Below are positions 1 through 16,364 of a DNA stretch of 21,903 nt, piece by piece. Source of the DNA: a virus; UHGV virus genome UHGV-0149790. The stretch is one strand, 5' to 3'. The translations under genes were made by a program, and so were the position numbers. Below the pieces are notes generated by a model, which was not told the DNA's origin, ran no database searches, and worked only from the letters and a program-made list of their open reading frames with translations. Position 1 is the stretch's first letter, and each line of letters starts with the position of its first letter.

Positions 1-272
1 TCGCTAAGGCGAACGCTTTTTTCACCTCTGGAATAAATCACGGTGCCGATGTGGGTTTTACGCCTGCGGCCGGAAACCGTAGGGGCGATAATTTCTCGCT
101 TAATCGGTTTTTGCGGGGTGATGCCTGGTACAGGGGCCGGACGTGGCGCCGCTACGAACACGGAACGGCTACGGGCGCGCGCACCGGCATTCATGCGCCA
201 GAGAATAACGGGGAGCCAGTTGCAGCCATCATCCGGTTTTACTGGTTTTGGGTAATTTAAATTCGTGGTCAT
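1..272 (-). CDS. hypothetical protein, 3'-truncated by the window edge (next gene after the helicase in the early-right operon)
   Basis: ATG at 272-270 on the minus strand directly preceded by the recurring GAGGAAAGACC motif; frame stays open to position 1 (MTTNLNYPKPVKPDDG...). Absent from the supplied track because it has no stop inside the window. Confidence 0.4.
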   Translation of the reverse strand, partial: MTTNLNYPKPVKPDDGCNWLPVILWRMNAGARARSRSVFVAAPRPAPVPGITPQKPIKREIIAPTVSGRRRKTHIGTVIYSRGEKSVRLS

Positions 273-310
273 TGGTCTTTCCTCAGTTAAATCGCGCTGG
301 TCAGGCGCGG

Positions 311-1699: not shown

Positions 1700-2688
1700 A
1701 GCGATCCCTCACGAGTTTTACGCAATGTTTCAGGCTTCATCAGGTAGTCAAAGCTGGCGCGCCATCCGCCATTTTCACCAAAGTAAAAATCGGAGGCGTC
1801 AGCGCGGAATTTTTCGAAATAGCCCAGAAATGCGCCCGTGGTTTTGTTTTTCATATGGGCGGCCAGACGGGTGATCATCCGGCGGCGGTCGGTGTCGAGT
1901 TCAGCAGCAGGCAGAGCGTCAGCAAAAATTTCGTTGTAGCCGTTCATAACGGCTTCGGGGTCAATATCGGCTTCGGTCACCGCCCATGCTTCAGCGTCAG
2001 CGAGATAACCATCAAAGCGGTTTACCCGGCAGATGTTCGCTGGCTTCGGCAGGCTATCGCCACGGCGGCGCCATGTGGCCAGCACCCAGCGGATAACTAA
2101 CTGCAATTCGTCCAGGGTGTAACCTTCCCGGGTGGTGGTCGGCGTCAGCATCATCACAAACGGTTTCAGGTCACGGCAGCGGGTACCGGTTTGCTCGTTG
2201 TAAAATTCCAGCGCTTTTTGTGCATCAGAAAGAATTAACTCAACGCCTTCCCCCTCTAAGGGGTTAGGGGTATATATATTCTCTGTAGTATTCTCTGTAA
2301 GAAAGTTTGCTGGTTTTCCACTTACTTGTTTGCTGGTTTTCCGCATTCCAGTATGTGGTTTTTCCGCATTCTTGTTTGCGGCTACAAGTGATTGAAATAA
2401 AACATCATTATCAATCTTGTAGAAAAGACGAGCAGGTACACCTTTCTTTTTTTCCAGCAGTACACCAATTGAGCGAAGTTTCTTACGCGCCCCCTCCTGT
2501 TCGTAACGGGAAAGGCCTGTTTCTTCCTCCCATTCTTCCTGGGTTTTATATACCCATCCATCATCGTCGGATCGGTTAGTCCAGTAAGTCATTTGAGACA
2601 GGAACAGTGCAGCCGTCACACCGATATTCAGGCGAATGAAACTACGCTGGAAGGCGATCGGCCTGTCGAGTAATGGCAAAATATTCAT
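1696..2688 (-). CDS. phage replication initiation protein (O-like replisome organiser) with origin iterons inside the coding sequence
   Basis: 330-aa ORF; two-domain layout with a Lys/Thr/Asn-rich linker coinciding with a direct-repeat array at 2305-2383; sits immediately upstream of, and coupled to, the helicase gene. Confidence 0.75.
   Translation of the reverse strand: MNILPLLDRPIAFQRSFIRLNIGVTAALFLSQMTYWTNRSDDDGWVYKTQEEWEEETGLSRYEQEGARKKLRSIGVLLEKKKGVPARLFYKIDNDVLFQSLVAANKNAEKPHTGMRKTSKQVSGKPANFLTENTTENIYTPNPLEGEGVELILSDAQKALEFYNEQTGTRCRDLKPFVMMLTPTTTREGYTLDELQLVIRWVLATWRRRGDSLPKPANICRVNRFDGYLADAEAWAVTEADIDPEAVMNGYNEIFADALPAAELDTDRRRMITRLAAHMKNKTTGAFLGYFEKFRADASDFYFGENGGWRASFDYLMKPETLRKTREGSL
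2266..2430. repeat. ori-like element: four iterons at 23-bp spacing flanked by AT-rich DNA
   Basis: GTTTGCTGGTTTTCC-like repeats starting at 2305, 2328, 2351 and 2374; CTCTGTA x2 at 2281-2299; AT-rich stretch 2391-2430; all inside the O-like gene, as with lambda ori. Confidence 0.55.
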
Positions 2689-2690
2689 AC

Positions 2691-2912
2691 TCAGATCCCC
2701 AGCGAGTCAGCCAGCTGGCGGCAGGCGATTTCATATTCTTTCTGGGTGAGTCCCGCTTCCTGCAGGTCTGCTTTGCGCAGCTCGTAGCGTTCCCAGATTG
2801 TCAGCGCAGCAGCGCGACGTTCCTCGAAAATCAATTCGATATCTTCTATCGGGACTTGTACCCCGTTCCGGCGAAACCCGTTCCGCCAGGTGATGCGGTC
2901 TTGTGTTCTCAT
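2691..2912 (-). CDS. small hypothetical protein (73 aa) between the CII-like gene and the replication initiator
   Basis: ATG at 2912-2910 preceded by an exact GAGGAAAGACCA motif; stop overlaps the RBS of the O-like gene. The 162-aa track ORF 2691..3179 is an upstream extension that clashes with the CII-like gene. Confidence 0.5.
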   Translation of the reverse strand: MRTQDRITWRNGFRRNGVQVPIEDIELIFEERRAAALTIWERYELRKADLQEAGLTQKEYEIACRQLADSLGI

Positions 2913-2932
2913 TGGTCTTTCCTCGGTACAGG

Positions 2933-3379
2933 TTAAACGCTGGTCAGGCGCTGTGTTTCTCGCATAGCTTGCAATGCTCTGGCGACTTGCTGCGGCCCGT
3001 CTCTGGCGTCGAGTAACAACGCGATAATCGCCGCGGCAAACTCGCGAATGGCCACACAAATTAAATACTGAGTGGACATACCCAAGCGCGCGTAACGTTC
3101 TGCCGGCAGCGCCGCTTCCATCGCTTTGACCAGCGCCAGAGTTTTGGCTCTCGCGGCTTTGGTCTCGCCTCGCAACCAACGAAAAATTTGTTGGCGGTTG
3201 TTGTTGATTGCCCGCCAGTCGGCGTTTCCATCTGCATCTTCGATCTGGTGCAGCTTCAGCGAACCGGTATTACCACCAAGACGAAACCACATGCGGCTTA
3301 TCTCGATAGCAACCAGCTCCTGCCCGCTTTCCGCTGCCCAGTTAAAGATCTCTCGTTTAAGTTCTTCGAGGTATTCCAC
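2933..3379 (-). CDS. CII-position regulatory protein, possibly YdaT-family
   Basis: 148-aa helical ORF directly downstream of the Cro-like gene; GTG start at 3379 with AGGAGA 9 nt upstream. Family assignment is from recalled similarity only. Confidence 0.5.
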   Translation of the reverse strand: MEYLEELKREIFNWAAESGQELVAIEISRMWFRLGGNTGSLKLHQIEDADGNADWRAINNNRQQIFRWLRGETKAARAKTLALVKAMEAALPAERYARLGMSTQYLICVAIREFAAAIIALLLDARDGPQQVARALQAMRETQRLTSV

Positions 3380-3441
3380 TTCGAGCGTCTCCTGTCGCTG
3401 AAAATTGATTAAGCGTAATCAGATTTCGATGCCGCTAATTG

Positions 3442-3636
3442 TTAAGCTGATTTGGCTGGCAGTTGGTAAGCCTTTGGGTCATAAACAAGTTCGCCATCAG
3501 TCATCAGAGACAAACGAGCCGCTTTACCTTCAGGAACCAAACGCCCCCACGCATAGACAGTAGGAGCCTTAACGCCAGCGGCCTCAGCCAGTTTTCTCTT
3601 ACTACCAAAATATTTGATCGCATCAGTTGTTAACAT
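3442..3636 (-). CDS. Cro-like HTH regulator (DicC/YdaS type)
   Basis: 64-aa ORF (YFGSKRKLAEAAGV...LVPEGKAARL...GELVYDPKAY) divergent from the repressor gene; AGGAGG RBS; promoter and operators immediately upstream. Confidence 0.75.
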   Translation of the reverse strand: MLTTDAIKYFGSKRKLAEAAGVKAPTVYAWGRLVPEGKAARLSLMTDGELVYDPKAYQLPAKSA

Positions 3637-3650
3637 GAAACACCCTCCTG

Positions 3651-3714
3651 TTAGATTTTTCTAACAAATTAGGTGTTCGAGATAACGAAGTCAAGGAAAT
3701 TTAGAATTATCTAA
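3651..3714. promoter_or_regulatory. OR-like region: two 14-bp palindromic operators and a pR-like promoter for the Cro-like gene
   Basis: TTAGATTTTTCTAA (3651-3664) and TTAGAATTATCTAA (3701-3714). Minus-strand promoter: -35 TTGACT (3694-3689), 17-bp spacer, -10 TAATTT (3671-3666). The first operator overlaps the -10/start site; the second abuts the repressor start codon. Confidence 0.6.
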
Positions 3715-3716
3715 CT

Positions 3717-4103
3717 ATGACAATGCCAGGTGAGCGCATCAGAGCGCGTAGAAAAGATCTCAAACTTACTCAGCGCGCTTTAGCGAAGCTGGTTAACGTC
3801 GCGCACGTCACTATCTCCCAGTGGGAGACCGGTGATAGTGAGCCTGGCGGAAAAAACCTTTTCGCTTTAAGTAACGCACTTCAATGCAGCCCTACCTGGA
3901 TACTTTACGGCGATGAAGCCGCCACTCCGGGAACCCCGGTAGACACCCCGCCGCCATTAGATGAACGAGAAACAGAGCTTTTAAAACTCTTTTCGTCACT
4001 CCCAGAATCTGAAAAAGAGCGGCATTTAACGGAACTTCGCGAAAAAGTAGACGGTTTCAATCGTTTATTTGAGGAGTTACTGCAAGCCCGCAAACAAAAA
4101 TAA
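3717..4103 (+). CDS. short HTH-XRE prophage repressor (DicA-like; no peptidase S24 domain)
   Basis: 128 aa; N-terminal HTH (GERIRARRKDLKLTQRALAKL...ISQWETGDSEPGGKNLFALSNALQCSPTWILYGDE) closely resembles recalled DicA; no Ala-Gly/Ser-Lys autocleavage module; divergent from the Cro-like gene. Confidence 0.85.
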   Translation: MTMPGERIRARRKDLKLTQRALAKLVNVAHVTISQWETGDSEPGGKNLFALSNALQCSPTWILYGDEAATPGTPVDTPPPLDERETELLKLFSSLPESEKERHLTELREKVDGFNRLFEELLQARKQK

Positions 4104-4168
4104 TCCCTTTCTAATCAGTTAGATGCATTTTTTTACGCCCATTGTGTTCGTTTTCTCTAATTTAATCA

Positions 4169-4197
4169 TTGACCAAATTGTTAGATTTATCTAAATT
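4169..4197 (+). promoter_or_regulatory. pL-like promoter with an embedded operator
   Basis: -35 TTGACC (4169-4174), 17-bp spacer, -10 TAAATT (4192-4197); third operator copy TTAGATTTATCTAA at 4181-4194 lies in the spacer/-10. Confidence 0.5.
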
Positions 4198-4348
4198 ACA
4201 TCACATCAACGACGCACTAACCACGCGGCAGTTGTTCAGAAACAGTTCTGACAGTCCGGAAAGACGGGCGCGAATTCTTCGGGTCGCCGACAGTACGATG
4301 ACATGCGGGAAAGACCGCAACGAATGCGAATTGCTGTGTGTAGTCTTG

Positions 4349-4373
4349 GCCCGGGCGCCCCGGGCATTTTTTT
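4349..4373 (+). terminator. intrinsic terminator about 150 nt downstream of the pL-like promoter
   Basis: Perfect 7-bp GC stem GCCCGGG-cgc-CCCGGGC (4349-4365) followed by a run of seven T (4367-4373). Confidence 0.7.
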
Positions 4374-4454
4374 AAAGCATTCACGCAGTAACGAGGAAAG
4401 ACCAATGGGGCTGACCACCCTGACAGCCGGGAAAGACCGGCAACCTTCAGGCGT

Positions 4455-4476
4455 AAAAAAGCCCACCGAAGTGGGC
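4455..4476 (-). terminator. intrinsic terminator on the minus strand, convergent with the plus-strand terminator
   Basis: GCCCAC-cgaa-GTGGGC hairpin (4461-4476) flanked by AAAAAA at 4455-4460, i.e. a T-run after the stem when read on the minus strand. Confidence 0.5.
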
Positions 4477-4597
4477 TAATTTACCCGGGACAGTGACCAA
4501 ACCGCCCAGAATGCTACAGGGGACCAACCCTGTAGCGAGGAAAGACCAACGACAGAGCCGCTGATCGGCTCTGAGTATATATCATCAAGGAGTCGCT

Positions 4598-4921
4598 ATG
4601 GAAGCGCTTACCATCCCCGTAACTATTTACGTTATGGCCACAACCAACCCATATCTACCAACGTCTTATCACTCATTCACCTGTGACATGTCACAGCAAT
4701 ACCCTGATCTGTATGTCCTCGTTACTACCAAAACGGTAGAGGTTGCCATTCCAGCTTTAGAGCCAATCGACATTATTGGTATGCAGGTTAATGCCCTTCG
4801 TGCGAAGAAAGAGAAAATCTCTGCCGAAGCAAAGAAGGAGCTGGGTGTTATTGAAGACCAGATTCAGCAGCTGCTGTGCATCGATCACTCTCCAATTGAA
4901 GAAAGCGACGTACCGTTTTAA
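4598..4921 (+). CDS. hypothetical protein, first gene of the left operon
   Basis: 107-aa ORF with AAGGAG RBS 6 nt upstream; acidic and not arginine-rich, so not N-like. Confidence 0.6.
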   Translation: MEALTIPVTIYVMATTNPYLPTSYHSFTCDMSQQYPDLYVLVTTKTVEVAIPALEPIDIIGMQVNALRAKKEKISAEAKKELGVIEDQIQQLLCIDHSPIEESDVPF

Positions 4922-4965
4922 TTAACCGGCGCGTGACCTGCGCCAGTAACCAAGAGGAAAGACCA

Positions 4966-7164
4966 ATGACCATCTACAACGGCTCATTTGAGCCAAAGAA
5001 ATCGGCGATTAAAGACTGCGGCGCCGTGCAGCTGGCGATCGCCATCGATGCGCCAAACAAAAAAGTGGCCGAAAGCATTATGACCGGCAAACTCTGGGAA
5101 TCATACCCGGCCAATGGTGACAACTATTTCAAACCGAAACTGTGGGAACACGTTGAAGGCCAGCCGCTGCCGACCGTTGGCCAGTTCGATGAGTCATTCG
5201 CCCAGCAGCATACTTTTGACGGTGAAAAATGGGTTTCTACTGCGCAGGATAGCGCTTCCGGAAGTGGTGCAGGTTTACCTGCCGACGATGAAGTGATCGA
5301 CCTGATGACCGTTTCCCCTGATGAACGCTTTGCTGCCGTCCTGCTTTTTAGTACCGCGGCGATTGATGGCCATCTTTATTCTCAGGTTGTGGATTATCTG
5401 GATAATCTGAAAAACCACGATGGGGAATTTGAAGAGGAAGATCGCTTTAACTTTAATGTTCTGTGTGCCCTGCAAAATAACTTCCCGGTTCAAAGCATGC
5501 ATGTGGAAGGTCTGAACAATCTTATTCAGGGTATTTTCTCCCACTTTGAAAACCAGACGCCGGGCAAAGCGGCTATCTCTCAGTTCGTTAAACGCTGGCT
5601 TGAGAATCCGGGCAAGCGCGACGAACTGGCCCCCGGCGTATATAAAAATACCGCTCTCAGCACCAGCACCAGCACCAGCACCAGCACCAGCACCAGCACC
5701 AGCACCAGCACCAGCACCGATGATAAAACACCCGTGGTAATTTCTAAGCGCGGATATAAACACACTTATGCAACGCTGGATCAGGAGATCGCTACCGCCC
5801 TTCTCCCGCTGGCGCCTGATGCGCCGGTACTATCCGGAAACCTTCTGGACGCTAAGAAGATGATTTCCGATGACCGGGAAGATTTTAAACGCTGGTCAGC
5901 ATCGCTGCACACCACGCCGCAGATACTCAAATACGACCGCGCCAGCATCTTCGGCGTGGTACAAAACGTACCGGCGAAAGATACCTACCATTTCCCTGAC
6001 AGCCTGCGCCGCCATATCGATTCATGGCTGGCGGCCAACGGCCGCTTTGAGGAAACCGAGACAGGATCCGTTAAACAACCAGAGGCGACGCAAAATACCG
6101 CCTCAAACGTGGGCGAAAAAGTGGAAGCGCAGCAGCCGGTTGTAACCGACACCCAGGCCAAACAGGCGCGTGAGACGCTCAATGATATGGGTTATGGCGT
6201 ATATGCCTCTGGTGAAGGTGCAGAGCCGGAAGAGAAGTTAAGCGTTAAGGCTGAAAAACTGGCTGATGATTCCGAGCGTTTAGCAAAACAAATCGCTCAC
6301 GCTGAAAGCCTGCCTAACGCTGAGGATGTTGTGCAGGCTGTCGGAAAACCAATCATCGGGGAAGACAATTTAGACCTCTGGAAACGCGTATTTAAAACCG
6401 ACGAAAGGTTTACTAAGGCTTTCACACAGAACGGCGGTGGCACCTCGATCAACGGTACCTACATGACCATGCTTGCCACACGTGAGTTTGGCCCTAAGGG
6501 CATCGGCTGGGGCGTGGATATTGTTGAAGAGCGTTTCGATATTGGCGCGCCGATCACTCGGCAAGTAAAAGGCAAAGACAACAACGCATCGTGGGAGCTG
6601 GTTCTTGATGGGAATGGTAATACCGTCAACGAACAGCACCATGTTGTGACTGTCCGGCTCTGGTACATCCTGAACGGAGTACGAGGTGAGGAAACAGCAT
6701 ACGGCTGTACACCCTACATTTACGGTAGTAAATACGGGATCACCTGCGACGGCGAAGCAGCCAAAAAATCACTGACAGATGCGACCAAAAAAGCGTTATC
6801 CGGCCTCGGATTCAGTGGCGATATCTTTATGGGGCTTTACGACAATCTGGAGTACCGCCAGAAGAACAAGGCCGAGTTTGACCTGAAGAACGCCAGCGAA
6901 TCAGCCGAAGATGCAGCACGGCTCCGCCAGGAGTTTGACGATAAATTAAGCCGCGTTGCTAATACCCTGGCGCATGGCGTGACGGTGAACGAAATCAACG
7001 GTGTGTTTTCCCCTATCGCACGTGAGATCGATGTTCACATTAAAGCCGCCCAGGCCAACGGCGACACGCAGCATGAACGTTATCTGTCTGGCCGGCTCCG
7101 CCGACTCATCTCCATCAAAGATGGGCGCATTAAAGAACTGAATAAAGCCGAGGAGAAAGCATAA
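4966..7164 (+). CDS. large recombination protein: N-terminal region of unknown function, (Ser-Thr)10 linker, C-terminal Rad52-like single-strand annealing domain
   Basis: ATG at 4966 preceded by GAGGAAAGACCA; C-terminal motif GCTPYIYGSKYGITCDGEAAKKSLTDATKKALSGLGFSGDIFMGLYD matches the Rad52/Sak signature (K-x-A-V-T-D-x-x-K-R-A-L-x-x-F-G); 733 aa from this start. Confidence 0.7.
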   Translation: MTIYNGSFEPKKSAIKDCGAVQLAIAIDAPNKKVAESIMTGKLWESYPANGDNYFKPKLWEHVEGQPLPTVGQFDESFAQQHTFDGEKWVSTAQDSASGSGAGLPADDEVIDLMTVSPDERFAAVLLFSTAAIDGHLYSQVVDYLDNLKNHDGEFEEEDRFNFNVLCALQNNFPVQSMHVEGLNNLIQGIFSHFENQTPGKAAISQFVKRWLENPGKRDELAPGVYKNTALSTSTSTSTSTSTSTSTSTSTDDKTPVVISKRGYKHTYATLDQEIATALLPLAPDAPVLSGNLLDAKKMISDDREDFKRWSASLHTTPQILKYDRASIFGVVQNVPAKDTYHFPDSLRRHIDSWLAANGRFEETETGSVKQPEATQNTASNVGEKVEAQQPVVTDTQAKQARETLNDMGYGVYASGEGAEPEEKLSVKAEKLADDSERLAKQIAHAESLPNAEDVVQAVGKPIIGEDNLDLWKRVFKTDERFTKAFTQNGGGTSINGTYMTMLATREFGPKGIGWGVDIVEERFDIGAPITRQVKGKDNNASWELVLDGNGNTVNEQHHVVTVRLWYILNGVRGEETAYGCTPYIYGSKYGITCDGEAAKKSLTDATKKALSGLGFSGDIFMGLYDNLEYRQKNKAEFDLKNASESAEDAARLRQEFDDKLSRVANTLAHGVTVNEINGVFSPIAREIDVHIKAAQANGDTQHERYLSGRLRRLISIKDGRIKELNKAEEKA
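5659..5718. repeat. perfect hexanucleotide tandem repeat (AGCACC)x10 encoding (Ser-Thr)10
   Basis: Ten uninterrupted AGCACC units read directly in the sequence, in frame within the 4966..7164 CDS. Confidence 0.95.
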
Positions 7165-7730
7165 TGACTTCCACCACTGCAATTGCTATCGCAGCCGATA
7201 TGTCAAAACTCCAGGCACTACTGGAAAACGAAGACGGTGCTGGTCTGTCTCCTGAAATGATCGCCGACACAATGGAAGGTCTTGAGTTACAACTCGGCGA
7301 TAAACTGGATGCCGTTTTCGTCCACGTTCGCAATCTGGAAGGCCTGGCAAAAACCTGCGATGAAGAGGCCAAACGCCTTGCCGCCCGCAAAAAATCATTC
7401 GAAGGTAAGATCACGAACCTGAAGAAATATGTTCTCCAGTGTCTACTGGCCGCCGGTCAGGATACGGTTAAAACCGCCAAAAATACCTTTACCGCACGTA
7501 AGGGAGCTATAAACGTCGTGATCGATAATGATGAATTACTGCCGGATGAATTAGTGACAGTTCAGACGTTAGTCACTCCGGACAAGAAAGCCATCAAGGA
7601 AGCGATTGAATCAGCACAGGCAGCGGCGGCCCAGATTACCGCTGACGGCGGAGAGATACCGGAAGAACTGTTAAACCCAGTGCCGGGCGCTCACCTTGAG
7701 ATTGGCGAACGTTCGCTGCAGGTGCGCTGA
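7164..7730 (+). CDS. Gam-like / Gp157-family protein (candidate DNA-end-binding accessory)
   Basis: 188 aa; start overlaps the upstream stop (TAATG); N-terminal coiled-coil plus a C-terminal pattern resembling Mu Gam; family call from recall, moderate confidence. Confidence 0.5.
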   Translation: MTSTTAIAIAADMSKLQALLENEDGAGLSPEMIADTMEGLELQLGDKLDAVFVHVRNLEGLAKTCDEEAKRLAARKKSFEGKITNLKKYVLQCLLAAGQDTVKTAKNTFTARKGAINVVIDNDELLPDELVTVQTLVTPDKKAIKEAIESAQAAAAQITADGGEIPEELLNPVPGAHLEIGERSLQVR

Positions 7731-7731
7731 T

Positions 7732-7917
7732 ATGCTGAAACTCACACTGAAACGAGGCGACGCGCTTCACGTCGTTTTTCCGGACGGTACTAACGGGATA
7801 ATCGAAGCCTGCGCGCGTTGTGAACTGGCTATGCATTTTCCGCGCAGTGCCAAAATCACCCGCGAAAATGGCGCGTTCCGGAATAAACCAAACCTGATTA
7901 AGCCTAATCAGAAATAA
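7732..7917 (+). CDS. small beta-rich protein (61 aa), CsrA-like or AbrB/MazE-like N-terminus
   Basis: ATG at 7732, 1 nt after the upstream stop; MLKLTLKRGDALHVV...FPRSAKITREN matches CsrA (MLILTRRVGETL...APKEVSVHREE) in length and pattern, but also resembles swapped-hairpin proteins. Confidence 0.5.
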   Translation: MLKLTLKRGDALHVVFPDGTNGIIEACARCELAMHFPRSAKITRENGAFRNKPNLIKPNQK

Positions 7918-7966
7918 CTCGCAACTGTCGTTAGCATTGTGATCTACCTATGAACCGGAGATCACA

Positions 7967-8191
7967 ATGCTACGTTGGCAACCAGGCACACTTTTACTTT
8001 CAGATTTCGATATCAAAATTGGCAGGCTATCAGCCAGCGTTAGAAAGAGGACTCTGACCCAGTCCGATATCCAACGCGCTTGCGATACGGCAGACAACGC
8101 GATAGCCGGCATGCTGAGGAAAGACCATGAGACACGATCACGACATCATCACCAGAGAGGAAATGATCGAACTGACGGGGACCCCACTTAA
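7967..8191 (+). CDS. hypothetical small basic protein
   Basis: 74-aa ORF whose ATG sits in the 3' arm of an 11-bp perfect inverted repeat; overlaps the excisionase-like ORF in another frame; weak support. Confidence 0.3.
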   Translation: MLRWQPGTLLLSDFDIKIGRLSASVRKRTLTQSDIQRACDTADNAIAGMLRKDHETRSRHHHQRGNDRTDGDPT

Positions 8192-8372
8192 ATCGAGGCA
8201 GTGTGAAGCGCTACGTCGGGCCGGTGTCTTTTTCATGGAAAGGGCAGACGGCCATCCTAAAACGACGTGGGGCCATTTCCTGAACCCGATTAAATACCGC
8301 AACCAGCAGGAAGAGACGGTGCGGGAGGAAGAACCAGACTTCGGAGCTATCTTTAATGGCCGGAAAACGTAA
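8127..8372 (+). CDS. excisionase-like DNA-binding protein
   Basis: 81-aa ORF immediately upstream of and overlapping the integrase start; the ITREEMIELTG...ALRRAGVFF segment fits small winged-helix excisionases; positional support. Confidence 0.5.
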   Translation: MRHDHDIITREEMIELTGTPLKSRQCEALRRAGVFFMERADGHPKTTWGHFLNPIKYRNQQEETVREEEPDFGAIFNGRKT

Positions 8373-9372
8373 GAACCCCGCTGATAACTGGATGCCGCCC
8401 CGCGTGTATCGCGGTAAGGCGGCGTATGAATTCAGGAATAAAGATAACAAGGCTATCAGGCTATGTGCGCTCTCCGAGCCTCAATCAGCTGTATGGCTGG
8501 CATATGAAAAAGCCATGGGAGAAGAAGTCGAGCGCAAGACGTTTCAGGCTCTGGCCGATCAATTCATGTCTTCCCCTGACTGGCAGGATTTAGCGGCAGA
8601 AACCCGAAAAGACTACACGAAATACGCAGGCAAAGTGTTGCCGGTGTTCGGGAAGGTTAACCCCGATAAAATTAAACCGGAACACATCCGGCGCTATATG
8701 GATCAGCGTGGCATGGCCAGTAAAACGCAGGCCAACCGGGAAAAGAGTTTTCTTTCTCGGGTATTCCGCTGGGGTTATGAGCGGGGTTACGTCCAGCATA
8801 ATCCCTGTCAGGGCGTTAAGAAGTTCAAAGAGGCAGCCCGGGAGCGTTACATCACCGACGAAGAATACAAAGCGGTTTACGATGTTGCTCCAGACGTAGT
8901 TCGCGCCACCATGGAAATCGCTTATTTGTGTCTGGCCAGACAAAGCGATGTGCTGGCTTTGACTGAAGACCAGATACGCGAAACCGGGATCTTTATCCGC
9001 CAGGGGAAAACAGGCGTGAAGCAAATCAAAGCATGGTCGCCACGCCTGCGCGCCGCTGTCGCCCTCGCCCGTTCCCTGCCGTTAAAGCCGGGTATCCGTA
9101 GCCTGTTTGTCATTCACCAGACCAGCGGCAGCAAATACACCCGTGACGGTTTTAATTCACGCTGGCGCGACGCGAAAATCGCAGCGCAGGAAAAGAACCC
9201 ACACCTGCAGATAGATTTCACTTTCCACGATCTGAAAGCGAAAGGTGTCTCTGATCTGGAAGGAAGCCTCGAGGAGAAACAGGCGATTTCAGGCCATAAG
9301 AATTCGAGACAAACGGCGATTTACGACAGGAAAACTAAAATTGTGCCGGTTGTTGGTGGTCAGAAAAAATGA
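8356..9372 (+). CDS. int: tyrosine site-specific integrase (lambda Int family)
   Basis: 338 aa; C-terminal catalytic region with HDLKAKGVSD, GHKNSRQTAIY and the terminal Tyr; 3' end faces the att core 120 bp away. Confidence 0.9.
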   Translation: MAGKRKNPADNWMPPRVYRGKAAYEFRNKDNKAIRLCALSEPQSAVWLAYEKAMGEEVERKTFQALADQFMSSPDWQDLAAETRKDYTKYAGKVLPVFGKVNPDKIKPEHIRRYMDQRGMASKTQANREKSFLSRVFRWGYERGYVQHNPCQGVKKFKEAARERYITDEEYKAVYDVAPDVVRATMEIAYLCLARQSDVLALTEDQIRETGIFIRQGKTGVKQIKAWSPRLRAAVALARSLPLKPGIRSLFVIHQTSGSKYTRDGFNSRWRDAKIAAQEKNPHLQIDFTFHDLKAKGVSDLEGSLEEKQAISGHKNSRQTAIYDRKTKIVPVVGGQKK

Positions 9373-9433
9373 ATCGCTATGCGTTCGTTGAAAAATCATC
9401 TTCGGACGCATCTTCGGAAAGGAGAGTTTCAGA

Positions 9434-9458
9434 TACAAAAAAACCACCCGTAGGTGGT
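9434..9458 (-). terminator. intrinsic terminator between int and the att core, strongest on the minus strand
   Basis: AACCACC-cgta-GGTGGTT stem (9441-9458) preceded by AAAAAAA (9434-9440), a T7 run after the hairpin on the minus strand. Confidence 0.55.
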
Positions 9459-9492
9459 TTCACGACACTGCTTATTGCTTTGATTATTCTGC

Positions 9493-9548
9493 TTTATCCC
9501 AATGGTACCCGGAGCGGGACTTGAACCCGCACAGCGCGAACGCCGAGG
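9493..9548 (-). other. att core: 56-nt 3'-terminal fragment of tRNA-Leu (anticodon UAA), not an intact tRNA gene
   Basis: Minus strand reads ATTTAAAATCCCTCGGCGTTCGCGCTGTGCGGGTTCAAGTCCCGCTCCGGGTACCA: anticodon loop, long variable arm, T-arm GGTTCAAGTCC, acceptor 3' strand and CCA. The 5' half of the tRNA is absent (sequence diverges at 9549). Confidence 0.75.
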
Positions 9549-9696
9549 GATTTTAAATTGGTGGTGATTATTCTAAATATCAAATAGATATGAAAAAAAT
9601 CCGAACATACGCTAATAAACTAGCATCATGAAAACAATAAGTTACAGCAATGTTTTAGACTATCTTCTGACGCTTATCATACCTCAAATTCAATAT

Positions 9697-9936
9697 TTAT
9701 TCAGTCGCGCGGTACCACGATTGCCAGCGGTAGATATTCGTACGTAACTCCCGCACACACTCTGCTGACTGTGTATCCGCCAGCAGATCAGCGTCGCTAT
9801 CTGCGCCAGCGTTACTTATCTTGCACGGTCGGTTCATCAAATCCGGGGATGGCGTTGGCCGCGTCGATTGCTCGTTGGCGCAGCTGCACAGCAGCAGGAT
9901 CAAACTGGCACACAGTACGATTCGGGTCATTGACAT
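9697..9936 (-). CDS. Rz1-like o-spanin (outer-membrane lipoprotein), overlapping the Rz gene
   Basis: Signal-like N-terminus MSMTRIVLCASLILLLCSCANE with Cys near the cleavage region, Pro-rich mature part; out-of-frame overlap with Rz and extends past it. Confidence 0.5.
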   Translation of the reverse strand: MSMTRIVLCASLILLLCSCANEQSTRPTPSPDLMNRPCKISNAGADSDADLLADTQSAECVRELRTNIYRWQSWYRATE

Positions 9937-10171
9937 ATTTCACCACATCACGATAAACGGTACGGTAAATCACTTTGGCTTCGGCGTTCGCCGTCGCTGC
10001 TTTCTGCTCACCAGCGGCAACTGCCTTTTCCTGCTTCGGTAGCCTTTGTTTAGCCTGGCTGTTTACTTGCTCTGAATGTGCGTACCAGCCTTTCAGATAC
10101 CCCGCCCAGTAAATCCCGGCGCATACCGCCAGCACGCCACCAACAATCACCAGTTTGGTTTTTCCGTTCAT
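9812..10171 (-). CDS. Rz-like i-spanin
   Basis: N-terminal TM segment (KLVIVGGVLAVCAGIYWAGYL) then a charged, Ala/Gln-rich periplasmic domain; ATG at 10171 overlaps the endolysin stop (ATGA). Confidence 0.7.
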   Translation of the reverse strand: MNGKTKLVIVGGVLAVCAGIYWAGYLKGWYAHSEQVNSQAKQRLPKQEKAVAAGEQKAATANAEAKVIYRTVYRDVVKYVNDPNRTVCQFDPAAVQLRQRAIDAANAIPGFDEPTVQDK

Positions 10172-10704
10172 TCGTACAGCCCCCAGCACGTCAAAGCGCT
10201 TTCCTGATCGCGGCGGTCAACCTGCCCGTAGCAGCCATTCTTCTGGCCTTTGGTCAGTCGGCAATCCCGGCCTCCGTCGAACACCCATCGCCGGATCTCC
10301 GCGCATGCACCTTTACGGTCGCCTGCGTTCAGCTTGCGATAGAACGTTGAGGGGAAGCATTTACCCGGCCCGATGTTGTACGGGCAGAATGAGGCTATGC
10401 CGACCTTCTGCGGCGGCGTCAAAGAAACGAGCACATTCTTTTCTACCCAGGCAAGCGCCTTATCACGCTCAATGGCGTTTACCTTCCTGCACTGTTCCTC
10501 AGTTGCTCTTTGGCCCTTAATGACACGCTTGCCATCTATAACGGTTACTCCGTGGCACAATGACCACACACCGCCGGGGTCAACAACGGCCACCAGCGCG
10601 TTACCTTCTTTTTCGCTGATAAACTGATCGAACAGTATCGGTGCAGATGCACCGGCGGCCAGAAGCGCCAGCATAGCGGCGCTGAACTTAGCTTTGTTGC
10701 TCAT
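10168..10704 (-). CDS. SAR endolysin (T4-type lysozyme fold, phage 21 R-like)
   Basis: Start at 10704 ([25 protein letters not shown] = signal-anchor-release segment); catalytic-region pattern E...D...T and C-terminal [14 protein letters not shown]...ALTCWG resemble recalled R21; overlaps the holin 3' end. Confidence 0.85.
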
Positions 10705-10918
10705 AGTCCTGTGCCTTCCGCCGGTCGTCTTTGATTTTGAAGTACAAATTAGTGAGGTAGGTAAGCAGCCCAAAAACAATACTGGCCAGTACGCCAATAG
10801 CCGCCCACTGGCTGGGGCTTACCTTATCGAGAAGTTGCAGCAGCCAGTAGCTCCCGCTGACAGTGGATGTGATGTACGACGTGCCAGCCGCCACATCCGG
10901 TAAATTCTTCATTCGCAT
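10688..10918 (-). CDS. pinholin (class II holin, phage 21 S-like) with dual-start motif
   Basis: 76 aa; ...[43 protein letters not shown] matches recalled S21; starts Met-Arg-Met, the classic antiholin/holin dual start. Confidence 0.85.
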
Positions 10919-11000: not shown

Positions 11001-11270
11001 CTATATTTGGAGTTTTCTTTTAAGTGATTCCTCTGCCTCTTCAAGAGGGCTTCCTGACCCAGAATACACAAAAGAATGGGTAAGCTCCCCACAGGAAAGA
11101 CAACCATCAATGCTAACTTTAAATGAAACAGTCGCTGTTCCATTATTTAGCGATATTAACGATACAGCCTGGTATTCAACTTCAATCGATGTATCTTCTG
11201 ATGGCATCCATACACCTAGCGTTGGATATGCTATAGATTTTCCTATGGTCTGCGTCACTCTGAAAGTCAT
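11001..11270 (-). CDS. hypothetical protein in an AT-rich island between tailspike and holin
   Basis: ATG at 11270 with GAGG 5 nt upstream, overlapping the tailspike stop; 89 aa, beta-rich; a plus-strand ORF (10993..11283) covers the same DNA, so strand is uncertain. Confidence 0.35.
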   Translation of the reverse strand: MTFRVTQTIGKSIAYPTLGVWMPSEDTSIEVEYQAVSLISLNNGTATVSFKVSIDGCLSCGELTHSFVYSGSGSPLEEAEESLKRKLQI

Positions 11271-11277
11271 ATTAGCC

Positions 11278-13797
11278 TCATGAATTAAAAGGAACAACAT
11301 AATCAAAAGTACACTGGAGAGTAAAATCAAAAGTACCAGCTGCTTGAGAATATATTTCTTGGGCTGACGATTTTATAATCGTCATTTGATTTGTCCCTGC
11401 AGGAACAAGCGGCATAACAAAAACTCCTGTAGCCGTGCTTAGAATTATGCTTCCTTTAGACCCACCCTCCTGTATTGAGGCGGCTGTAAAAGGAAGACCA
11501 CTAATGACTATGGCTCCCGCAGTACTAACCAGTAAAGAGGTTGATCTGACTCTTATATCGCAACGAACAACATCACCAAACCTACGGTAAATTCCAGTAA
11601 TGGATGATGGCGTTACGCTTGCCCCGCCAATTGTAATAGTTGGTGTGAATGAGCCATAAAGATACTTAAACTGAGCAGCATTACCACCGGGAAAAGCTAT
11701 TGGCGGCATATAGGCATCATTTCGATTAAAAACATACTTATCGGATAAATTTGTTCCGTTTAACTCCTGAAGACCGAAAAGACGATAGTTTGAATTATCT
11801 CCAAGCTTTCTTTGAGCAACTATATTCTCACCGGCACCGATTCTTGTGCCGTTAAATTCATTAACTGGGGCAGCCTGAACCGCGCCACCTTTTACAATAT
11901 CAAGGGCGAAAATATTTCCTCTTGTTGCCATCGCTGGAAATGTTGAAAGAGATGGTTCGTAGGGATCAACATTATTAACATTAAATCTATTTCCAGCAAC
12001 ATCACCAAGGCCATACTTGATGATTCCTACCCTTTCCAGTATAAGAGTCCTTATTTTACTGTTACCAACATATGATTTAAATCCGTCAACGAATTGAGCA
12101 GAGTGGTAGAATGGCGTTCTTGGAGACCACAGCACTTTAGCCTCACCAATATTGCAATGCAATATCTCCCTTCCCGGAAGTGAAATAATAGTTCTTGCGC
12201 GCCCAGCTATACCTCTATAGGTATCAACTGGGTAAACCCCATTCTGCTGATTATTTGACAACCGACCACCGCTGGCCGTAGGCAAGCAGTTTGCAGACTT
12301 GAAAACATACGTATCAAACCAAGTGTCAAGAGCGGCATATGCTGGATGTGTCCAGTCCATGCCGGTATCACCATAATAATGAAACTTGTCTACATGGTAC
12401 GAATCATTCCATCCCGCCCGATGAATATCTGATGCCGGGTACGGCGGAAGGTACTGAGACGCGTATGCATGATTTCTCGTTAGCCAGCGCCCGCCAAAAA
12501 CAGGGCCTGTAATATTATACCAATATAATGTCAGCCCAGTTTGCGCCAGAGAATCAGATCCTTGATAACAAGCAGGAATGGCACACCCTGAGTACATCAT
12601 ATTATTTTCTACACAGCGGTTTACAGTCCCGTCTACCCATTGCCCAATAAAGAATCCGCTAATCCTGAAATCAGAAAGGTGATACTTTATGTATTGATCT
12701 GGTCCGCTGTCACCTGCGATGTATAGACCCATGGAAGATGTATGATCCCATGGTCCCGCAGTTTTTGAAAAATTACCAATAATCCCACAATTGTGTTGGT
12801 TTTCACCAACAATCATTGAATCATCATAAACACGCAGTGCTGCTTTTGCCTTAACTGGTATTTCAGGAGCAATATTTGAATCACCGTTCCCTATCCACCC
12901 TGGGTATACAGTCCCATCGTCGAATGGCAAATTAAACTCTATCGGTGAAGATATGCACGGATACATTTTAGTTAAATATACCGGAAGGTTATTAGCTTTT
13001 CCGTAATCTATAGCTGCCTGTAGAAATTTAGTTGCATCAGCAGTGATGCCGTGAATATATCTTTCACCATTAATCCTTATCATTTCAGGGGTTACGTATT
13101 TTATTGCATCTTCAACGGTGCCTCCAGTAAGAACCCCTATATGCCCGCTACCTGTCGGTTTGGCATACTCAATCATTACATCTGCTGCACTTCCACTCGA
13201 AGGCAATACCATCAATGGATTGCCATTATTATCCATTGCAACGATTTTATTTTTTCGTTCTGCAATGGAAGGTAACGGTGTGATGCTAGACTCCGGAACG
13301 CGTAGAGTACGAGCTAGATTAATTTTTCCATTTTCAATTACAAATTTTTTAGTAGCTGCATCCTGATCGTTAACTGGATCGGCCAGATTTGCTATCCGGT
13401 AGCCGTTAGCGTTGAAAGGTCCACCGCCGAACAGCGGGCGACTTAGGGCCACTCCGAGATAAATAAACGCGCGCTGAGTAGCCATCCAGAGACGGTCAAA
13501 ATCTTTGTTAACTGTATCGGCCAGCAGGTCGCCGTTGTCCTGGTAATCAGTGAGCCTGTAAGTCGGCGTTACACGTTCAAAAATGACTGTAGCGCCATTG
13601 GCCGGCGCGGTCAGAAAAGTAACTTCGCCACCGCCAGTATTACCCACACCAGACACTGTATAGCCGGACGTTACTTCGTTGCCGTTGATTGTGACCTGAA
13701 TATCGCTGGCGCTGATCAGGTAAAACTCATAGGCAAAGACAGTCGTCAGCCCGTTGGCGGTATAGATGTTATAGGGTGTCTGGTTCGGTACCGACAT
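11278..13797 (-). CDS. tailspike / tail fibre with T7 gp17-like N-terminal adaptor domain and probable beta-helix depolymerase body
   Basis: 839 aa; N-terminal approx. 150 aa (...NANGYRIANLADPVNDQDAATKKFV) parallel recalled T7 gp17 (...RGRRIVNLANAVDDRDAVPFGQL); Gly/Asn/Ser/Thr-rich repetitive body typical of polysaccharide depolymerases. Confidence 0.8.
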   Translation of the reverse strand: MSVPNQTPYNIYTANGLTTVFAYEFYLISASDIQVTINGNEVTSGYTVSGVGNTGGGEVTFLTAPANGATVIFERVTPTYRLTDYQDNGDLLADTVNKDFDRLWMATQRAFIYLGVALSRPLFGGGPFNANGYRIANLADPVNDQDAATKKFVIENGKINLARTLRVPESSITPLPSIAERKNKIVAMDNNGNPLMVLPSSGSAADVMIEYAKPTGSGHIGVLTGGTVEDAIKYVTPEMIRINGERYIHGITADATKFLQAAIDYGKANNLPVYLTKMYPCISSPIEFNLPFDDGTVYPGWIGNGDSNIAPEIPVKAKAALRVYDDSMIVGENQHNCGIIGNFSKTAGPWDHTSSMGLYIAGDSGPDQYIKYHLSDFRISGFFIGQWVDGTVNRCVENNMMYSGCAIPACYQGSDSLAQTGLTLYWYNITGPVFGGRWLTRNHAYASQYLPPYPASDIHRAGWNDSYHVDKFHYYGDTGMDWTHPAYAALDTWFDTYVFKSANCLPTASGGRLSNNQQNGVYPVDTYRGIAGRARTIISLPGREILHCNIGEAKVLWSPRTPFYHSAQFVDGFKSYVGNSKIRTLILERVGIIKYGLGDVAGNRFNVNNVDPYEPSLSTFPAMATRGNIFALDIVKGGAVQAAPVNEFNGTRIGAGENIVAQRKLGDNSNYRLFGLQELNGTNLSDKYVFNRNDAYMPPIAFPGGNAAQFKYLYGSFTPTITIGGASVTPSSITGIYRRFGDVVRCDIRVRSTSLLVSTAGAIVISGLPFTAASIQEGGSKGSIILSTATGVFVMPLVPAGTNQMTIIKSSAQEIYSQAAGTFDFTLQCTFDYVVPFNS

Positions 13798-13814
13798 ACG
13801 AGGAACTCCGGCGG

Positions 13815-15845: not shown

Positions 15846-16364
15846 ATGAAGATATTAATTCCATTGTTGCTAATCTTTCACTTTGCAGCATTCGCATCAA
15901 CCGATTTAGTTGATGACTCTAAATATATCGTTCCTATATCCGGACCAGGAATACAGATTACCAATCCATATACCGACTATACGGTCATTAACGGTATCGA
16001 CACTGGTAAAAAAATTGAGATCCATGTATCGGTATTACACTTGCGAACCTATAAAGAAAACGCAGATTTTAGTGAAACTAATACTCACTATGTGGAAGGA
16101 AGTAAAACCATATCTAGTTACAATGCCAATGTTTACACAGACGATTTTATAAAATTTACATCAGAAGACGCTAAAAATTCAACATTGAAAAATTTAAGGG
16201 ATTTGTATTGTGCACCAGATGGATTTTACCCAGTGTCATCTCAAGAGCGGCTATTCTACGAAACCCGAAAAGAAAATAAAAAAATAATGATCAATTACTA
16301 CAGTGATTCAGGGAAAACCCTCATGTTTGGGTTTGGGGTTTCCCCCGAATCATGTAAGTCGTAA
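15846..16364 (+). CDS. secreted or periplasmic protein of unknown function encoded by an AT-rich moron, opposite in orientation to the late operon
   Basis: 172 aa; AAGGAG RBS 9 nt upstream; signal peptide MKILIPLLLIFHFAAFAS; markedly AT-rich, wedged between two minus-strand late genes. Confidence 0.7.
   Translation: MKILIPLLLIFHFAAFASTDLVDDSKYIVPISGPGIQITNPYTDYTVINGIDTGKKIEIHVSVLHLRTYKENADFSETNTHYVEGSKTISSYNANVYTDDFIKFTSEDAKNSTLKNLRDLYCAPDGFYPVSSQERLFYETRKENKKIMINYYSDSGKTLMFGFGVSPESCKS

What the first reader, a model, noticed from the sequence alone, without database searches (positions are those of the whole stretch)
11278..13797. Tailspike with conserved T7-type adaptor and a probable polysaccharide depolymerase body
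The N-terminal approx. 150 aa look like the virion-attachment domain of T7 gp17, while the remaining approx. 690 aa are Gly/Asn/Ser/Thr-rich with repetitive short beta-strand segments typical of right-handed beta-helix capsule or O-antigen depolymerases. This predicts host range set by a surface polysaccharide and a potentially useful enzyme.
Basis: partly seen in the sequence, partly recalled or inferred. Interest (0 to 1): 0.45.

Follow-up and report, generated by a model that had tools for sequence, protein, structure and literature searches.

The report
Klebsiella prophage tailspike, capsule depolymerase
This gene encodes the tailspike of a Klebsiella pneumoniae temperate phage: a T7-type tail-attachment domain fused to a horizontally acquired capsule-degrading enzyme of a rare but already described structural class, so it is a useful but ordinary new member of a known kind.

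Summary
The ORF is real: minus strand, 11278-13797, 839 aa. Residues 9-153 match Pfam Phage_T7_tail (E=2e-11). Residues ~226-839 are homologous to proven Klebsiella capsule depolymerases: K64-1 S1-2 (KN4/KL124, 54% identity) and KN1dep/Dp42 (KL101/120/170, 31%, solved as PDB 9m4c/9m4d, E~1e-93). Published work puts these enzymes in "Class 4A": a short beta-helix interrupted by alpha-helices, plus a double C-terminal domain. My AlphaFold models show the same layout. Foldseek ranks beta-helix tailspikes first (Det7 gp208, E=8e-11), but TM-scores are low and no Pfam beta-helix model matches.

The exact protein is already in RefSeq (WP_204746338.1, K. pneumoniae) and untested. Neck, body and a translationally coupled 89-aa ORF form a low-GC cassette (GC3 0.30-0.32 versus 0.54-0.64 in the backbone). 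The same prophage backbone carries other bodies in this slot. The target K-type is unknown.

Side observation: the 89-aa ORF belongs to an uncharacterised Klebsiella-phage family always encoded directly after tailspike genes.

Verdict: new member of a known kind, modest interest.

The parts
11278..13797 (-). Tailspike gene, 839 aa (stop codon 11278-11280). Identical to K. pneumoniae WP_204746338.1 / QRU19296.1.
13806..13809 (-). GGAG ribosome-binding site 8 nt upstream of the ATG. The gene follows the TerL stop (13815) by 17 nt, so it lies in the late operon.
   Evidence: read directly
13333..13797 (-). aa 1-155: T7 gp17-type N-terminal tail-attachment (adaptor) domain. Backbone-like GC (0.51, GC3 0.54). 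77-90% identical to tail-fibre N-termini of Klebsiella and other Enterobacterales prophages that carry unrelated bodies.
13123..13332 (-). aa 156-225: neck/linker (RTLRVPES...SGSAADV motif region) and start of the low-GC cassette (GC3 0.30). 77% identical to the neck of P0001/L002, whose adaptor is only 36% identical.
11938..13122 (-). aa 226-~620: central catalytic domain. A short parallel beta-helix with an alpha-helical insertion (~aa 456-504). Contains conserved acids D254 D264 D293 D294 D306 E312 E397 D415 D465 E588 D611 (D415 is Glu in KN1dep).
   Evidence: PMC13385381
11665..11937 (-). aa ~621-711: first C-terminal sub-domain, modelled at low confidence. Corresponds to the 'short tail-fibre-like fragment' of Class 4A.
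11281..11664 (-). aa 712-839: C-terminal beta-sandwich 'knob' domain (pLDDT ~90). Best structural matches are Noumeavirus NMV_189 (TMt 0.59), reovirus sigma-C, adenovirus fibre knob and TP901-1 RBP head. A related domain also occurs alone in many short proteins.
11001..11270 (-). 89-aa ORF (phrog_7836, function unknown), translationally coupled: its GAGG site overlaps the tailspike stop. Same low GC (0.40, GC3 0.30). Travels with this body type in the prophage and phage loci examined. Possibly part of the cassette; its role is unknown.

Best explanation
The gene encodes the single tailspike (receptor-binding protein) of a temperate podophage of Klebsiella pneumoniae with a T7-like tail and an integrase. 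By analogy with T7 gp17, the spike is a homotrimer, and residues 1-155 dock it to the tail. A short neck (156-225) connects to a central domain (226-~620). That domain is a short right-handed beta-helix with alpha-helical insertions and cleaves the host's capsular polysaccharide. Two C-terminal domains follow and probably help trimerisation and/or glycan binding. On contact, the spike binds and digests capsule, letting the virion tunnel to the outer membrane, so the capsule (K) type sets host range. Neck, body and the downstream 89-aa ORF form a cassette imported from a lower-GC phage lineage and grafted onto the conserved adaptor. This is how this prophage family switches capsule type. Shown here: ORF, domain matches, homology, mosaic structure and GC discontinuity. 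Inferred: trimer, catalysis, capsule as substrate, and K-type. KL124-like is the best guess but weak.
For: Adaptor: Pfam Phage_T7_tail, E=2e-11. PDB matches to tailspike and fibre N-termini, including T7 gp17.

Genome context is T7-like. SLT-containing and 964-aa internal virion proteins, TerS-like and T7-type TerL lie upstream, and holin, endolysin and Rz downstream. Integrated copies have a nozzle-like gene upstream.

Body: phrog_22560 'tail protein', E=4e-230. PDB 9m4c 'Depolymerase, capsule KN1-specific' and 9m4d, E~1e-93 over aa 79-834. 54-57% identity to K64-1 S1-2 and JY917.

Experimental activity of relatives: PMC6465236, PMC11652154, PMC13385381.

Structure: AF2 central and C-terminal domains at pLDDT ~90. 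Foldseek top PDB hits are all beta-helix tailspikes (Det7 gp208 E=8e-11; AS12, P1, phi92, Kp7, K2-2, KP32gp38, Sf6). BFVD gives TMq 0.56-0.73 to JY917, UPM2146 and IME321 Dp42.

Conserved family residues, including eleven acidic positions, are all present.

Modularity: the identical TerL protein is followed by 672-, 728-, 729-, 809- or 839-aa spikes in different Klebsiella genomes. The E. coli relative has an SGNH 'sialate O-acetylesterase' in the slot. The same body (91%) sits on a 36%-identical adaptor in another prophage. GC3 is 0.30-0.32 for the cassette against 0.54-0.64 for the backbone.

Host: exact protein annotated in K. pneumoniae, on 43 contigs.
Against: No enzymatic test exists for this protein. 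The nearest characterised enzyme is only 54% identical. No Pfam or NCBIfam catalytic family matches the body, and the catalytic residues and mechanism (hydrolase or lyase) of this class are not known to me. Foldseek global TM-scores to classical beta-helix tailspikes are low (0.2-0.28), and hhalign to PF13229-type bodies gave 16% probability. The beta-helix assignment therefore rests on local 3Di similarity, secondary-structure pattern and published AF3 classification of relatives. Models were monomeric, and the N-terminal 230 aa had pLDDT below 50. A published screen warns that prophage depolymerase activity and specificity are poorly predicted from homology (PMC13123978).
Confidence: 0.83

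Rival explanations
1. It is a binding-only or catalytically dead spike. The protein attaches to the tail and recognises capsule or another receptor but no longer cleaves polysaccharide, as for some prophage RBPs that fail activity tests.
For: Most candidate prophage depolymerases gave no detectable recombinant expression in a published screen (34 of 50, PMC13123978). No catalytic Pfam domain matches.
Against: Every conserved family residue, including eleven acidic positions shared with active KN1dep and S1-2, is retained. The ORF is intact and 99-100% conserved across dozens of contigs. The contig spans attP, which suggests an excising, live phage.
Confidence: 0.08
2. It degrades a surface glycan other than the K-antigen capsule, such as O-antigen or another exopolysaccharide, so host range is set by that glycan.
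For: Beta-helix tailspikes with the same adaptor in related prophages of E. coli and Salmonella target O-antigen (epsilon15-type hits to the N-terminus). Substrate cannot be read from sequence.
Against: All characterised homologues of the body are capsule-specific Klebsiella enzymes. Body homologues occur almost only in Klebsiella phages and prophages.
Confidence: 0.05
3. It modifies capsule (for example by deacetylation) rather than depolymerising it, as described for SGNH-domain RBPs of Klebsiella prophages.
For: Capsule esterases are common in prophage RBPs (PMC13123978). The E. coli relative carries an SGNH 'sialate O-acetylesterase' in the same slot.
Against: There is no SGNH or esterase signature or fold. 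The body is homologous to enzymes that reduce CPS polymer size on gels.
Confidence: 0.03

Closest known systems
Klebsiella phage K64-1 S1-2 (BAW85692), KN4 = KL124 capsule depolymerase; DepoCatalog Class 4A
   Same: Central and C-terminal domains are collinear and 54% identical over aa 217-839. Same predicted architecture: short beta-helix with alpha-helical insertions plus a double C-domain.
   Different: S1-2 sits on a jumbo-myovirus N-terminus, not a T7-type adaptor. It has no downstream 89-aa ORF. Its gene GC is 0.32, like its host phage. Its specificity is proven; here it is unknown.
KN1dep (phage KN1-1) / Dp42 (phage IME321), KL101/KL120/KL170 depolymerase; PDB 9m4c, 9m4d/9m4e
   Same: It also pairs a T7-type adaptor with the Class 4A body on a T7-like podovirus. 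Homology is E~1e-93 over aa 79-834. Ten of the eleven conserved acidic positions are unchanged and D415 is Glu. BFVD model TMq is 0.56.
   Different: Only 31% identity. It comes from a virulent Przondovirus with gene order 16-17-17.5; here the spike follows TerL in a temperate phage. Its gene GC equals its backbone. No small downstream ORF.
Tail fibre of Klebsiella phage JY917 (Webervirus) and tailspike of Taipeivirus UPM 2146
   Same: Body 57% and 51% identical, with TMq 0.71-0.73. UPM 2146 also has the small-ORF homologue directly downstream and the same low GC (0.41, GC3 0.31).
   Different: Different N-terminal anchors (siphovirus; Ackermannviridae branched TSP complex). Both proteins are only annotated as tail fibre or tail proteins or hypothetical proteins in the records seen.
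T7 gp17 tail fibre
   Same: The N-terminal ~150 aa domain belongs to the same Pfam family and is collinear with gp17 residues 61-149. Presumed same docking site on a T7-like tail.
   Different: There is no long coiled-coil shaft or gp17 tip domain, and an enzymatic spike replaces the fibre. Sequence similarity to gp17 itself is weak (E=0.011).

Membership tests
Phage_T7_tail (PF03906) N-terminal adaptor domain | Matches the family HMM above Pfam's gathering score | tested here: met
   44.3 bits against a 25.2 cut-off, E=2e-11, aa 9-153 covering profile positions 8-148 of 157
Phage_T7_tail (PF03906) N-terminal adaptor domain | Located at the extreme N-terminus and collinear with T7 gp17 residues seen in solved tail complexes | tested here: met
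   7boz, 8dsp and 8e4g gp17 match aa 60-148 to 61-149, though weakly (E=0.011-0.014). Stronger matches to Dpo31/Dpo36 (8ck1) at E=7e-12 and to 'tail fiber gp9' (23sh).
Phage_T7_tail (PF03906) N-terminal adaptor domain | Encoded in a phage with a T7-like tail (adaptor and nozzle proteins) to dock on | tested here: inconclusive
   The tail tube genes lie outside the window. Integrated copies (L021, L016-L020) have a 663-aa product with only a faint Phage_nozzle hit upstream of the internal virion proteins. T7-type TerL and SLT internal protein are present.
Phage_T7_tail (PF03906) N-terminal adaptor domain | Physically binds the tail as a trimer | not testable with these tools
   Needs virion proteomics or cryo-EM.
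Class 4A Klebsiella capsule depolymerases (KN1dep/Dp42, S1-2, CDS_0178; DepoCatalog) | Full-length sequence homology of central and C-terminal domains to class members | tested here: met
   E=7e-94 to 9m4d and 4e-92 to 9m4c over aa 78/79-834. 54% identity to S1-2.
Class 4A Klebsiella capsule depolymerases (KN1dep/Dp42, S1-2, CDS_0178; DepoCatalog) | Short beta-helix central domain with inserted alpha-helices and loops, followed by a double C-domain | tested here: met
   AF2 shows strand ladder aa ~272-590 with helices at ~456-504, then a low-confidence segment (621-711) and a beta-sandwich (712-839). The class definition is in PMC13385381. Rungs were not counted because no coordinates were available.
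Class 4A Klebsiella capsule depolymerases (KN1dep/Dp42, S1-2, CDS_0178; DepoCatalog) | Retention of family-conserved (candidate catalytic) residues | tested here: met
   D254 D264 D293 D294 D306 E312 E397 D415 D465 E588 D611 are conserved in at least 97% of 31 members; in KN1dep all are identical except D415, which is Glu. Which of them are catalytic is unknown.
Class 4A Klebsiella capsule depolymerases (KN1dep/Dp42, S1-2, CDS_0178; DepoCatalog) | Demonstrated capsule-degrading activity with a defined K-type | not testable with these tools
   Needs recombinant protein and a KL-type panel.
Classical pectate-lyase-like right-handed beta-helix families (Pfam Beta_helix PF13229, Pect-lyase_RHGA_epim PF12708) | Matches a Pfam beta-helix HMM | tested here: not met
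   No hit for the body at E<=1. Only 2 of 29 family members touch PF12708, at E=0.024.
Classical pectate-lyase-like right-handed beta-helix families (Pfam Beta_helix PF13229, Pect-lyase_RHGA_epim PF12708) | Profile-profile homology to PF13229-type tailspike bodies | tested here: not met
   hhalign probability 16%, and only the cap region aligned. The test is weak because Neff was about 2.9.
Classical pectate-lyase-like right-handed beta-helix families (Pfam Beta_helix PF13229, Pect-lyase_RHGA_epim PF12708) | Three-dimensional parallel beta-helix fold | tested here: inconclusive

The most novel reading that the evidence does not exclude
The 89-aa ORF translationally coupled to the tailspike (11001-11270) may belong to an unrecognised class of tailspike-dedicated accessory proteins, for example an assembly or folding factor or a small virion partner. 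The family has at least 164 sequence clusters, is almost confined to Klebsiella/Raoultella phages and prophages, and has no annotation or structure. In every locus examined it lies a short gap (about 5-15 nt) after a 680-840-aa tailspike gene: T7-like, P2-like and Mu-like prophages and a virulent Taipeivirus. Its N-terminal two-thirds diverge along with the spike body, while a C-terminal F-x-Y-S/K-G-x-G-x-P-(L/F)-x-E-A-E motif is kept. If it is needed for folding, it could help explain why many prophage depolymerases give no detectable recombinant expression. Separately, the enzyme itself may target a K-type for which no depolymerase is yet known.
Probability: 0.2. Interest if true: 0.55.

Novelty: new member of a known kind. 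Interest (0 to 1): 0.27.

Why it matters
Capsule depolymerases set the host range of Klebsiella phages and are being developed as typing reagents and anti-virulence agents. Class 4A enzymes are rare: few have been characterised (S1-2, CDS_0178, KN1dep/Dp42), and only about 28-59 sequence clusters at 50% identity exist among 1.8 billion proteins. This prophage allele is a ready candidate to extend K-type coverage. It also gives a clean natural example of cassette exchange between low-GC virulent phages and temperate phages onto a conserved T7-type adaptor. None of this changes current understanding.

Tried and rejected
- The Foldseek PDB copy did not return 9m4c/9m4d, so I could not superpose on the solved homologue.
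- Literature searches found no paper describing 9m4c/9m4d or catalytic residues of KN1dep. The 'Dp42' search mostly returned dystrophin papers.
- Neither the accession nor diagnostic peptides of this protein occur in the supplements of DepoCatalog or of the prophage-RBP GWAS paper. It is therefore not among their tested enzymes, as far as the held text shows.
- hhalign of the central domain against PF13229-type bodies found no homology.
- Pfam at E<=1 on 29 family members gave no beta-helix family. NCBIfam gave nothing.
- The genome-contig scan (GTDB representatives) found only N-terminal adaptor matches in other Enterobacterales, not the body.
- The first homologue search missed the 99-100% identical sequences because N-terminal word matches saturated the candidate list. 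The exact look-up recovered them.
- The promoter and terminator scan showed nothing above shuffles near the gene, consistent with operon expression.
- I could not determine the K-locus of the lysogens, so the target K-type stays unassigned.
- A lysogenic-conversion role for the 89-aa ORF was considered and down-weighted. The ORF is translationally coupled to a late structural gene and also occurs in a virulent Taipeivirus.
- A profile search of the small ORF against the PDB found nothing.
Full report
**1. Observation**

The coordinates 11278-13797 delimit a single 839-codon ORF on the minus strand. It starts 17 nt after the stop of the large terminase gene, with a GGAG site 8 nt upstream of the ATG.

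Pfam places a Phage_T7_tail domain at aa 9-153 (E=2e-11, above the gathering score). PHROGs splits the protein the same way. Many 'tail fiber/tail spike' families match only aa 1-~250, whereas phrog_22560 'tail protein' matches aa 202-839 at E=4e-230.

G+N+S+T make up 31% of aa 151-839, against 18-27% in other proteins of the window, so the enrichment is real but modest.

**2. Genomic setting**

The window is the metagenome contig ENA ERZ1743278 NODE_75. It carries a temperate phage with:
- a lambdoid-style early region: DnaB, replication protein, cI/Cro, a RecE-like protein, and integrase at 8356-9372;
- a T7-like late region on the minus strand: SLT-containing internal virion protein, 964-aa internal protein, TerS-like ORF, T7-type TerL, the tailspike, an 89-aa ORF, holin, endolysin and Rz.

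TerL is 80% identical to that of Yersinia phages YeP4-6. The identical TerL protein occurs in hundreds of Klebsiella assemblies, in prophages integrated beside a DHDPS-family gene, yecA, tyrP and ftnA.

In the window the lysis genes join the integrase through a 138-nt stretch (9425-9562). That stretch matches the region annotated tRNA-Leu beside yecA in E. coli chromosomes, which suggests an attP junction of excised phage DNA.

The exact tailspike protein is RefSeq WP_204746338.1 / QRU19296.1, 'phage tail fiber domain-containing protein [Klebsiella pneumoniae]', seen on 43 contigs. The host is therefore K. pneumoniae. The sequence is already public but carries no functional annotation.

**3. 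What the body is**

The strongest evidence is direct homology.
- By sequence, aa 79-834 align with PDB 9m4d ('Probable tail spike protein') and aa 78-834 with 9m4c ('Depolymerase, capsule KN1-specific') at E~1e-93.
- By tblastn, the body is 54-57% identical to the tail proteins of Klebsiella phages JY917, phi1_175008 and K64-1 S1-2. It is ~51% identical to Taipeivirus UPM 2146 and 31% to KN1-1/IME321.
- UniRef names S1-2 'Depolymerase, capsule KN4-specific'.
- KN1dep was shown to form halos and to reduce KN1 CPS size on Alcian-blue gels (PMC6465236).
- S1-2 is listed as KN4-specific (PMC11652154).
- DepoCatalog equates KN4 with KL124 and KN1 with KL101/KL120/KL170. [quoted passage not shown]

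**4. Structure prediction**

I ran two AF2 predictions on a 29-sequence alignment. Both give high confidence (pLDDT ~90) for aa ~231-600 and 712-838. Confidence is low for the N-terminal 230 aa, which is expected for a monomer model of a trimeric anchor. The secondary structure is a ladder of short strands interrupted by helices at ~aa 456-504, then a poorly defined segment, then a beta-sandwich.

Foldseek against the PDB ranks right-handed beta-helix tailspikes first: Det7 gp208 (E=8e-11, prob 1.0), then AS12 gp42, P1 TSP, phi92 colanidase, Kp7 gp52, K2-2 TSP, KP32gp38 and Sf6 TSP. TM-scores are only 0.2-0.28. Against BFVD the family members come first (TMq 0.56-0.73), followed by 'pectate lyase superfamily' phage proteins at E~1e-10, again with low TM.

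No Pfam beta-helix model matches the body or its relatives. hhalign to PF13229-type bodies is negative.

My reading is that the beta-helix call is right at the level of architecture, but this is the atypical helix-interrupted class, invisible to standard sequence models. The last domain (aa 712-839) resembles trimeric viral knob and RBP-head domains: NMV_189 (TMt 0.59), reovirus sigma-C, adenovirus knob and TP901-1 RBP. Related sequences occur as short stand-alone proteins.

**5. Likely function and mechanism**

Eleven acidic positions are conserved across 31 family members. In active KN1dep ten are identical and D415 is Glu. All eleven are present here: D254, D264, D293, D294, D306, E312, E397, D415, D465, E588 and D611. 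This argues for a functional enzyme. Which residues are catalytic, and whether the enzyme is a hydrolase or a lyase, is unknown to me.

The inferred mechanism follows established tailspike biology. Trimeric spikes are anchored by the gp17-type domain on a T7-like tail. They bind and cleave capsule and so determine K-type host range.

The target K-type cannot be assigned. 54% identity to a KL124 enzyme is compatible with the same specificity, since DepoCatalog reports same-specificity groups at 28-55% identity. It is not evidence for it, and the prophage RBP study warns that homology does not consistently explain specificity (PMC13123978).

**6. Mosaic origin**

Three modules have separate histories.
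- The adaptor (aa 1-155) is 77-90% identical to prophage fibres of Klebsiella, E. coli, Pluralibacter, Trabulsiella and Serratia that carry unrelated bodies.
- The neck and body are 77% and 91% identical to P0001/P0132, a spike from a different K. pneumoniae prophage next to a sulfatase and radical-SAM gene pair. Its adaptor is only 36% identical.
- Prophages with the identical TerL carry 672-, 728-, 729-, 809- or 839-aa spikes. The E. coli relative carries an SGNH esterase.

GC3 drops from 0.54-0.64 in the backbone to 0.30-0.32 across the neck, body and the downstream 89-aa ORF. Homologous bodies in JY917, KN1-1 and L018 match their own backbones. Taipeivirus UPM 2146 has the same low GC and the same gene pair. 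This points to a fairly recent import of a ~2.3-kb cassette from a lower-GC, possibly Ackermannviridae-like, phage.

That is what one would expect if both prophages are adapted to that strain's capsule.

**7. Side finding: the 89-aa ORF**

The ORF at 11001-11270 (phrog_7836, no Pfam, NCBIfam or PDB match) starts 8 nt after the tailspike stop, and its GAGG site overlaps that stop.

Homologues follow the related bodies in L002/L004/L026, L027 and UPM 2146. More diverged ones (35%) follow other bodies in L018 and L019. A profile search finds at least 164 clusters, nearly all from Klebsiella or Raoultella and all annotated 'hypothetical'.

Two distant members that I checked sit directly after 741-aa and 684-aa tailspike-like genes, in P2-like and Mu-like prophages respectively. 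The family is absent after S1-2, KN1dep, JY917 and Koku, so it is not universally required. Its function is unknown. A tailspike-specific accessory role is a testable guess.

**8. Verdict**

The gene is an uncharacterised allele of a known, rare class of Klebsiella capsule depolymerase on a T7-type adaptor, and its sequence is already in public databases. It is a new member of a known kind. Interest is modest and lies mainly in application. The small-ORF family is the only genuinely open question.

Noticed in passing
window 11001-11270 (-); also L002 10604-10876, L027 12174-12437, L018 14067-14324, L019 15239-15508, L029 3401-3667, L031 5001-5276, L033 5001-5264: An 85-91-aa protein family (phrog_7836, all 'hypothetical'). 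It is always encoded a few nucleotides downstream of a tailspike gene in Klebsiella phages and prophages of at least four architectures. It keeps a conserved C-terminal F-x-Y-S/K-G-x-G-x-P-(L/F)-x-E-A-E motif, while its N-terminal part co-varies with the spike body. At least 164 clusters were found, and there is no structural or functional information.
   Followed up: partly
window 11001-13332: The neck, body and small ORF have GC 0.40-0.43 and GC3 0.30-0.32, against GC3 0.54-0.64 in flanking late genes. Homologous bodies in other phages match their own backbones. Taipeivirus UPM 2146 has the same gene pair at the same low GC, which suggests a recently imported cassette.
   Followed up: yes
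window 9425-9562 with int 8356-9372 (+) and Rz 9812-10189 (-): The contig joins the lysis cassette to the integrase across a stretch that matches the region annotated tRNA-Leu beside yecA in E. coli chromosomes. Integrated copies (L017, L021) have host genes (DHDPS-family gene, yecA, tyrP, ftnA) at this point instead. The window therefore probably represents excised or circular phage DNA in the metagenome.
   Followed up: partly
L026 (CP070088.1 5000834-5015428): One K. pneumoniae chromosome (5,345,150 bp) appears to carry the same depolymerase body (~91% identical) on two unrelated prophages with different N-terminal adaptors (839-aa and 864-aa versions).
   Followed up: partly
L001 4566-6755 (E. 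coli 23GD11002 prophage); L016-L020 slot after TerL: The same prophage backbone (identical TerL protein in Klebsiella; about 85% nucleotide identity over the aligned late region in E. coli) carries at least five different spike bodies. They include an SGNH 'sialate O-acetylesterase' in E. coli and an IS element inserted after the spike in L019.
   Followed up: partly
window 15846-16364 (+): A 172-aa ORF with an N-terminal signal-peptide-like segment lies on the opposite strand between the internal virion protein and TerS-like genes. Its GC is very low (0.35) and it matches phrog_8033 (function unknown). The slot holds different 130-172-aa ORFs in relatives, so it looks like a moron.
   Followed up: no
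window 5658-5718: A perfect (CAGCAC)x10 hexanucleotide repeat encodes an (ST)n run inside the 743-aa RecE/exonuclease VIII-like protein. It is a possible slippage-prone linker.
   Followed up: no
window 10688-10918 (-) and 10168-10797 (-): The class II holin has a dual-start motif (M-R-M-K). The endolysin (Phage_lysozyme) has an N-terminal hydrophobic, SAR-like segment. The listed 209-aa TTG start is probably an over-extension, since other assemblies aa.
   Followed up: no
window 1-8130: The early region is 85.6% identical to 'Stenotrophomonas phage vB_SmeS_BUCT708/709'. That host label is odd for a sequence otherwise found in Klebsiella, and may be a mis-assigned host or a shared module.
   Followed up: no
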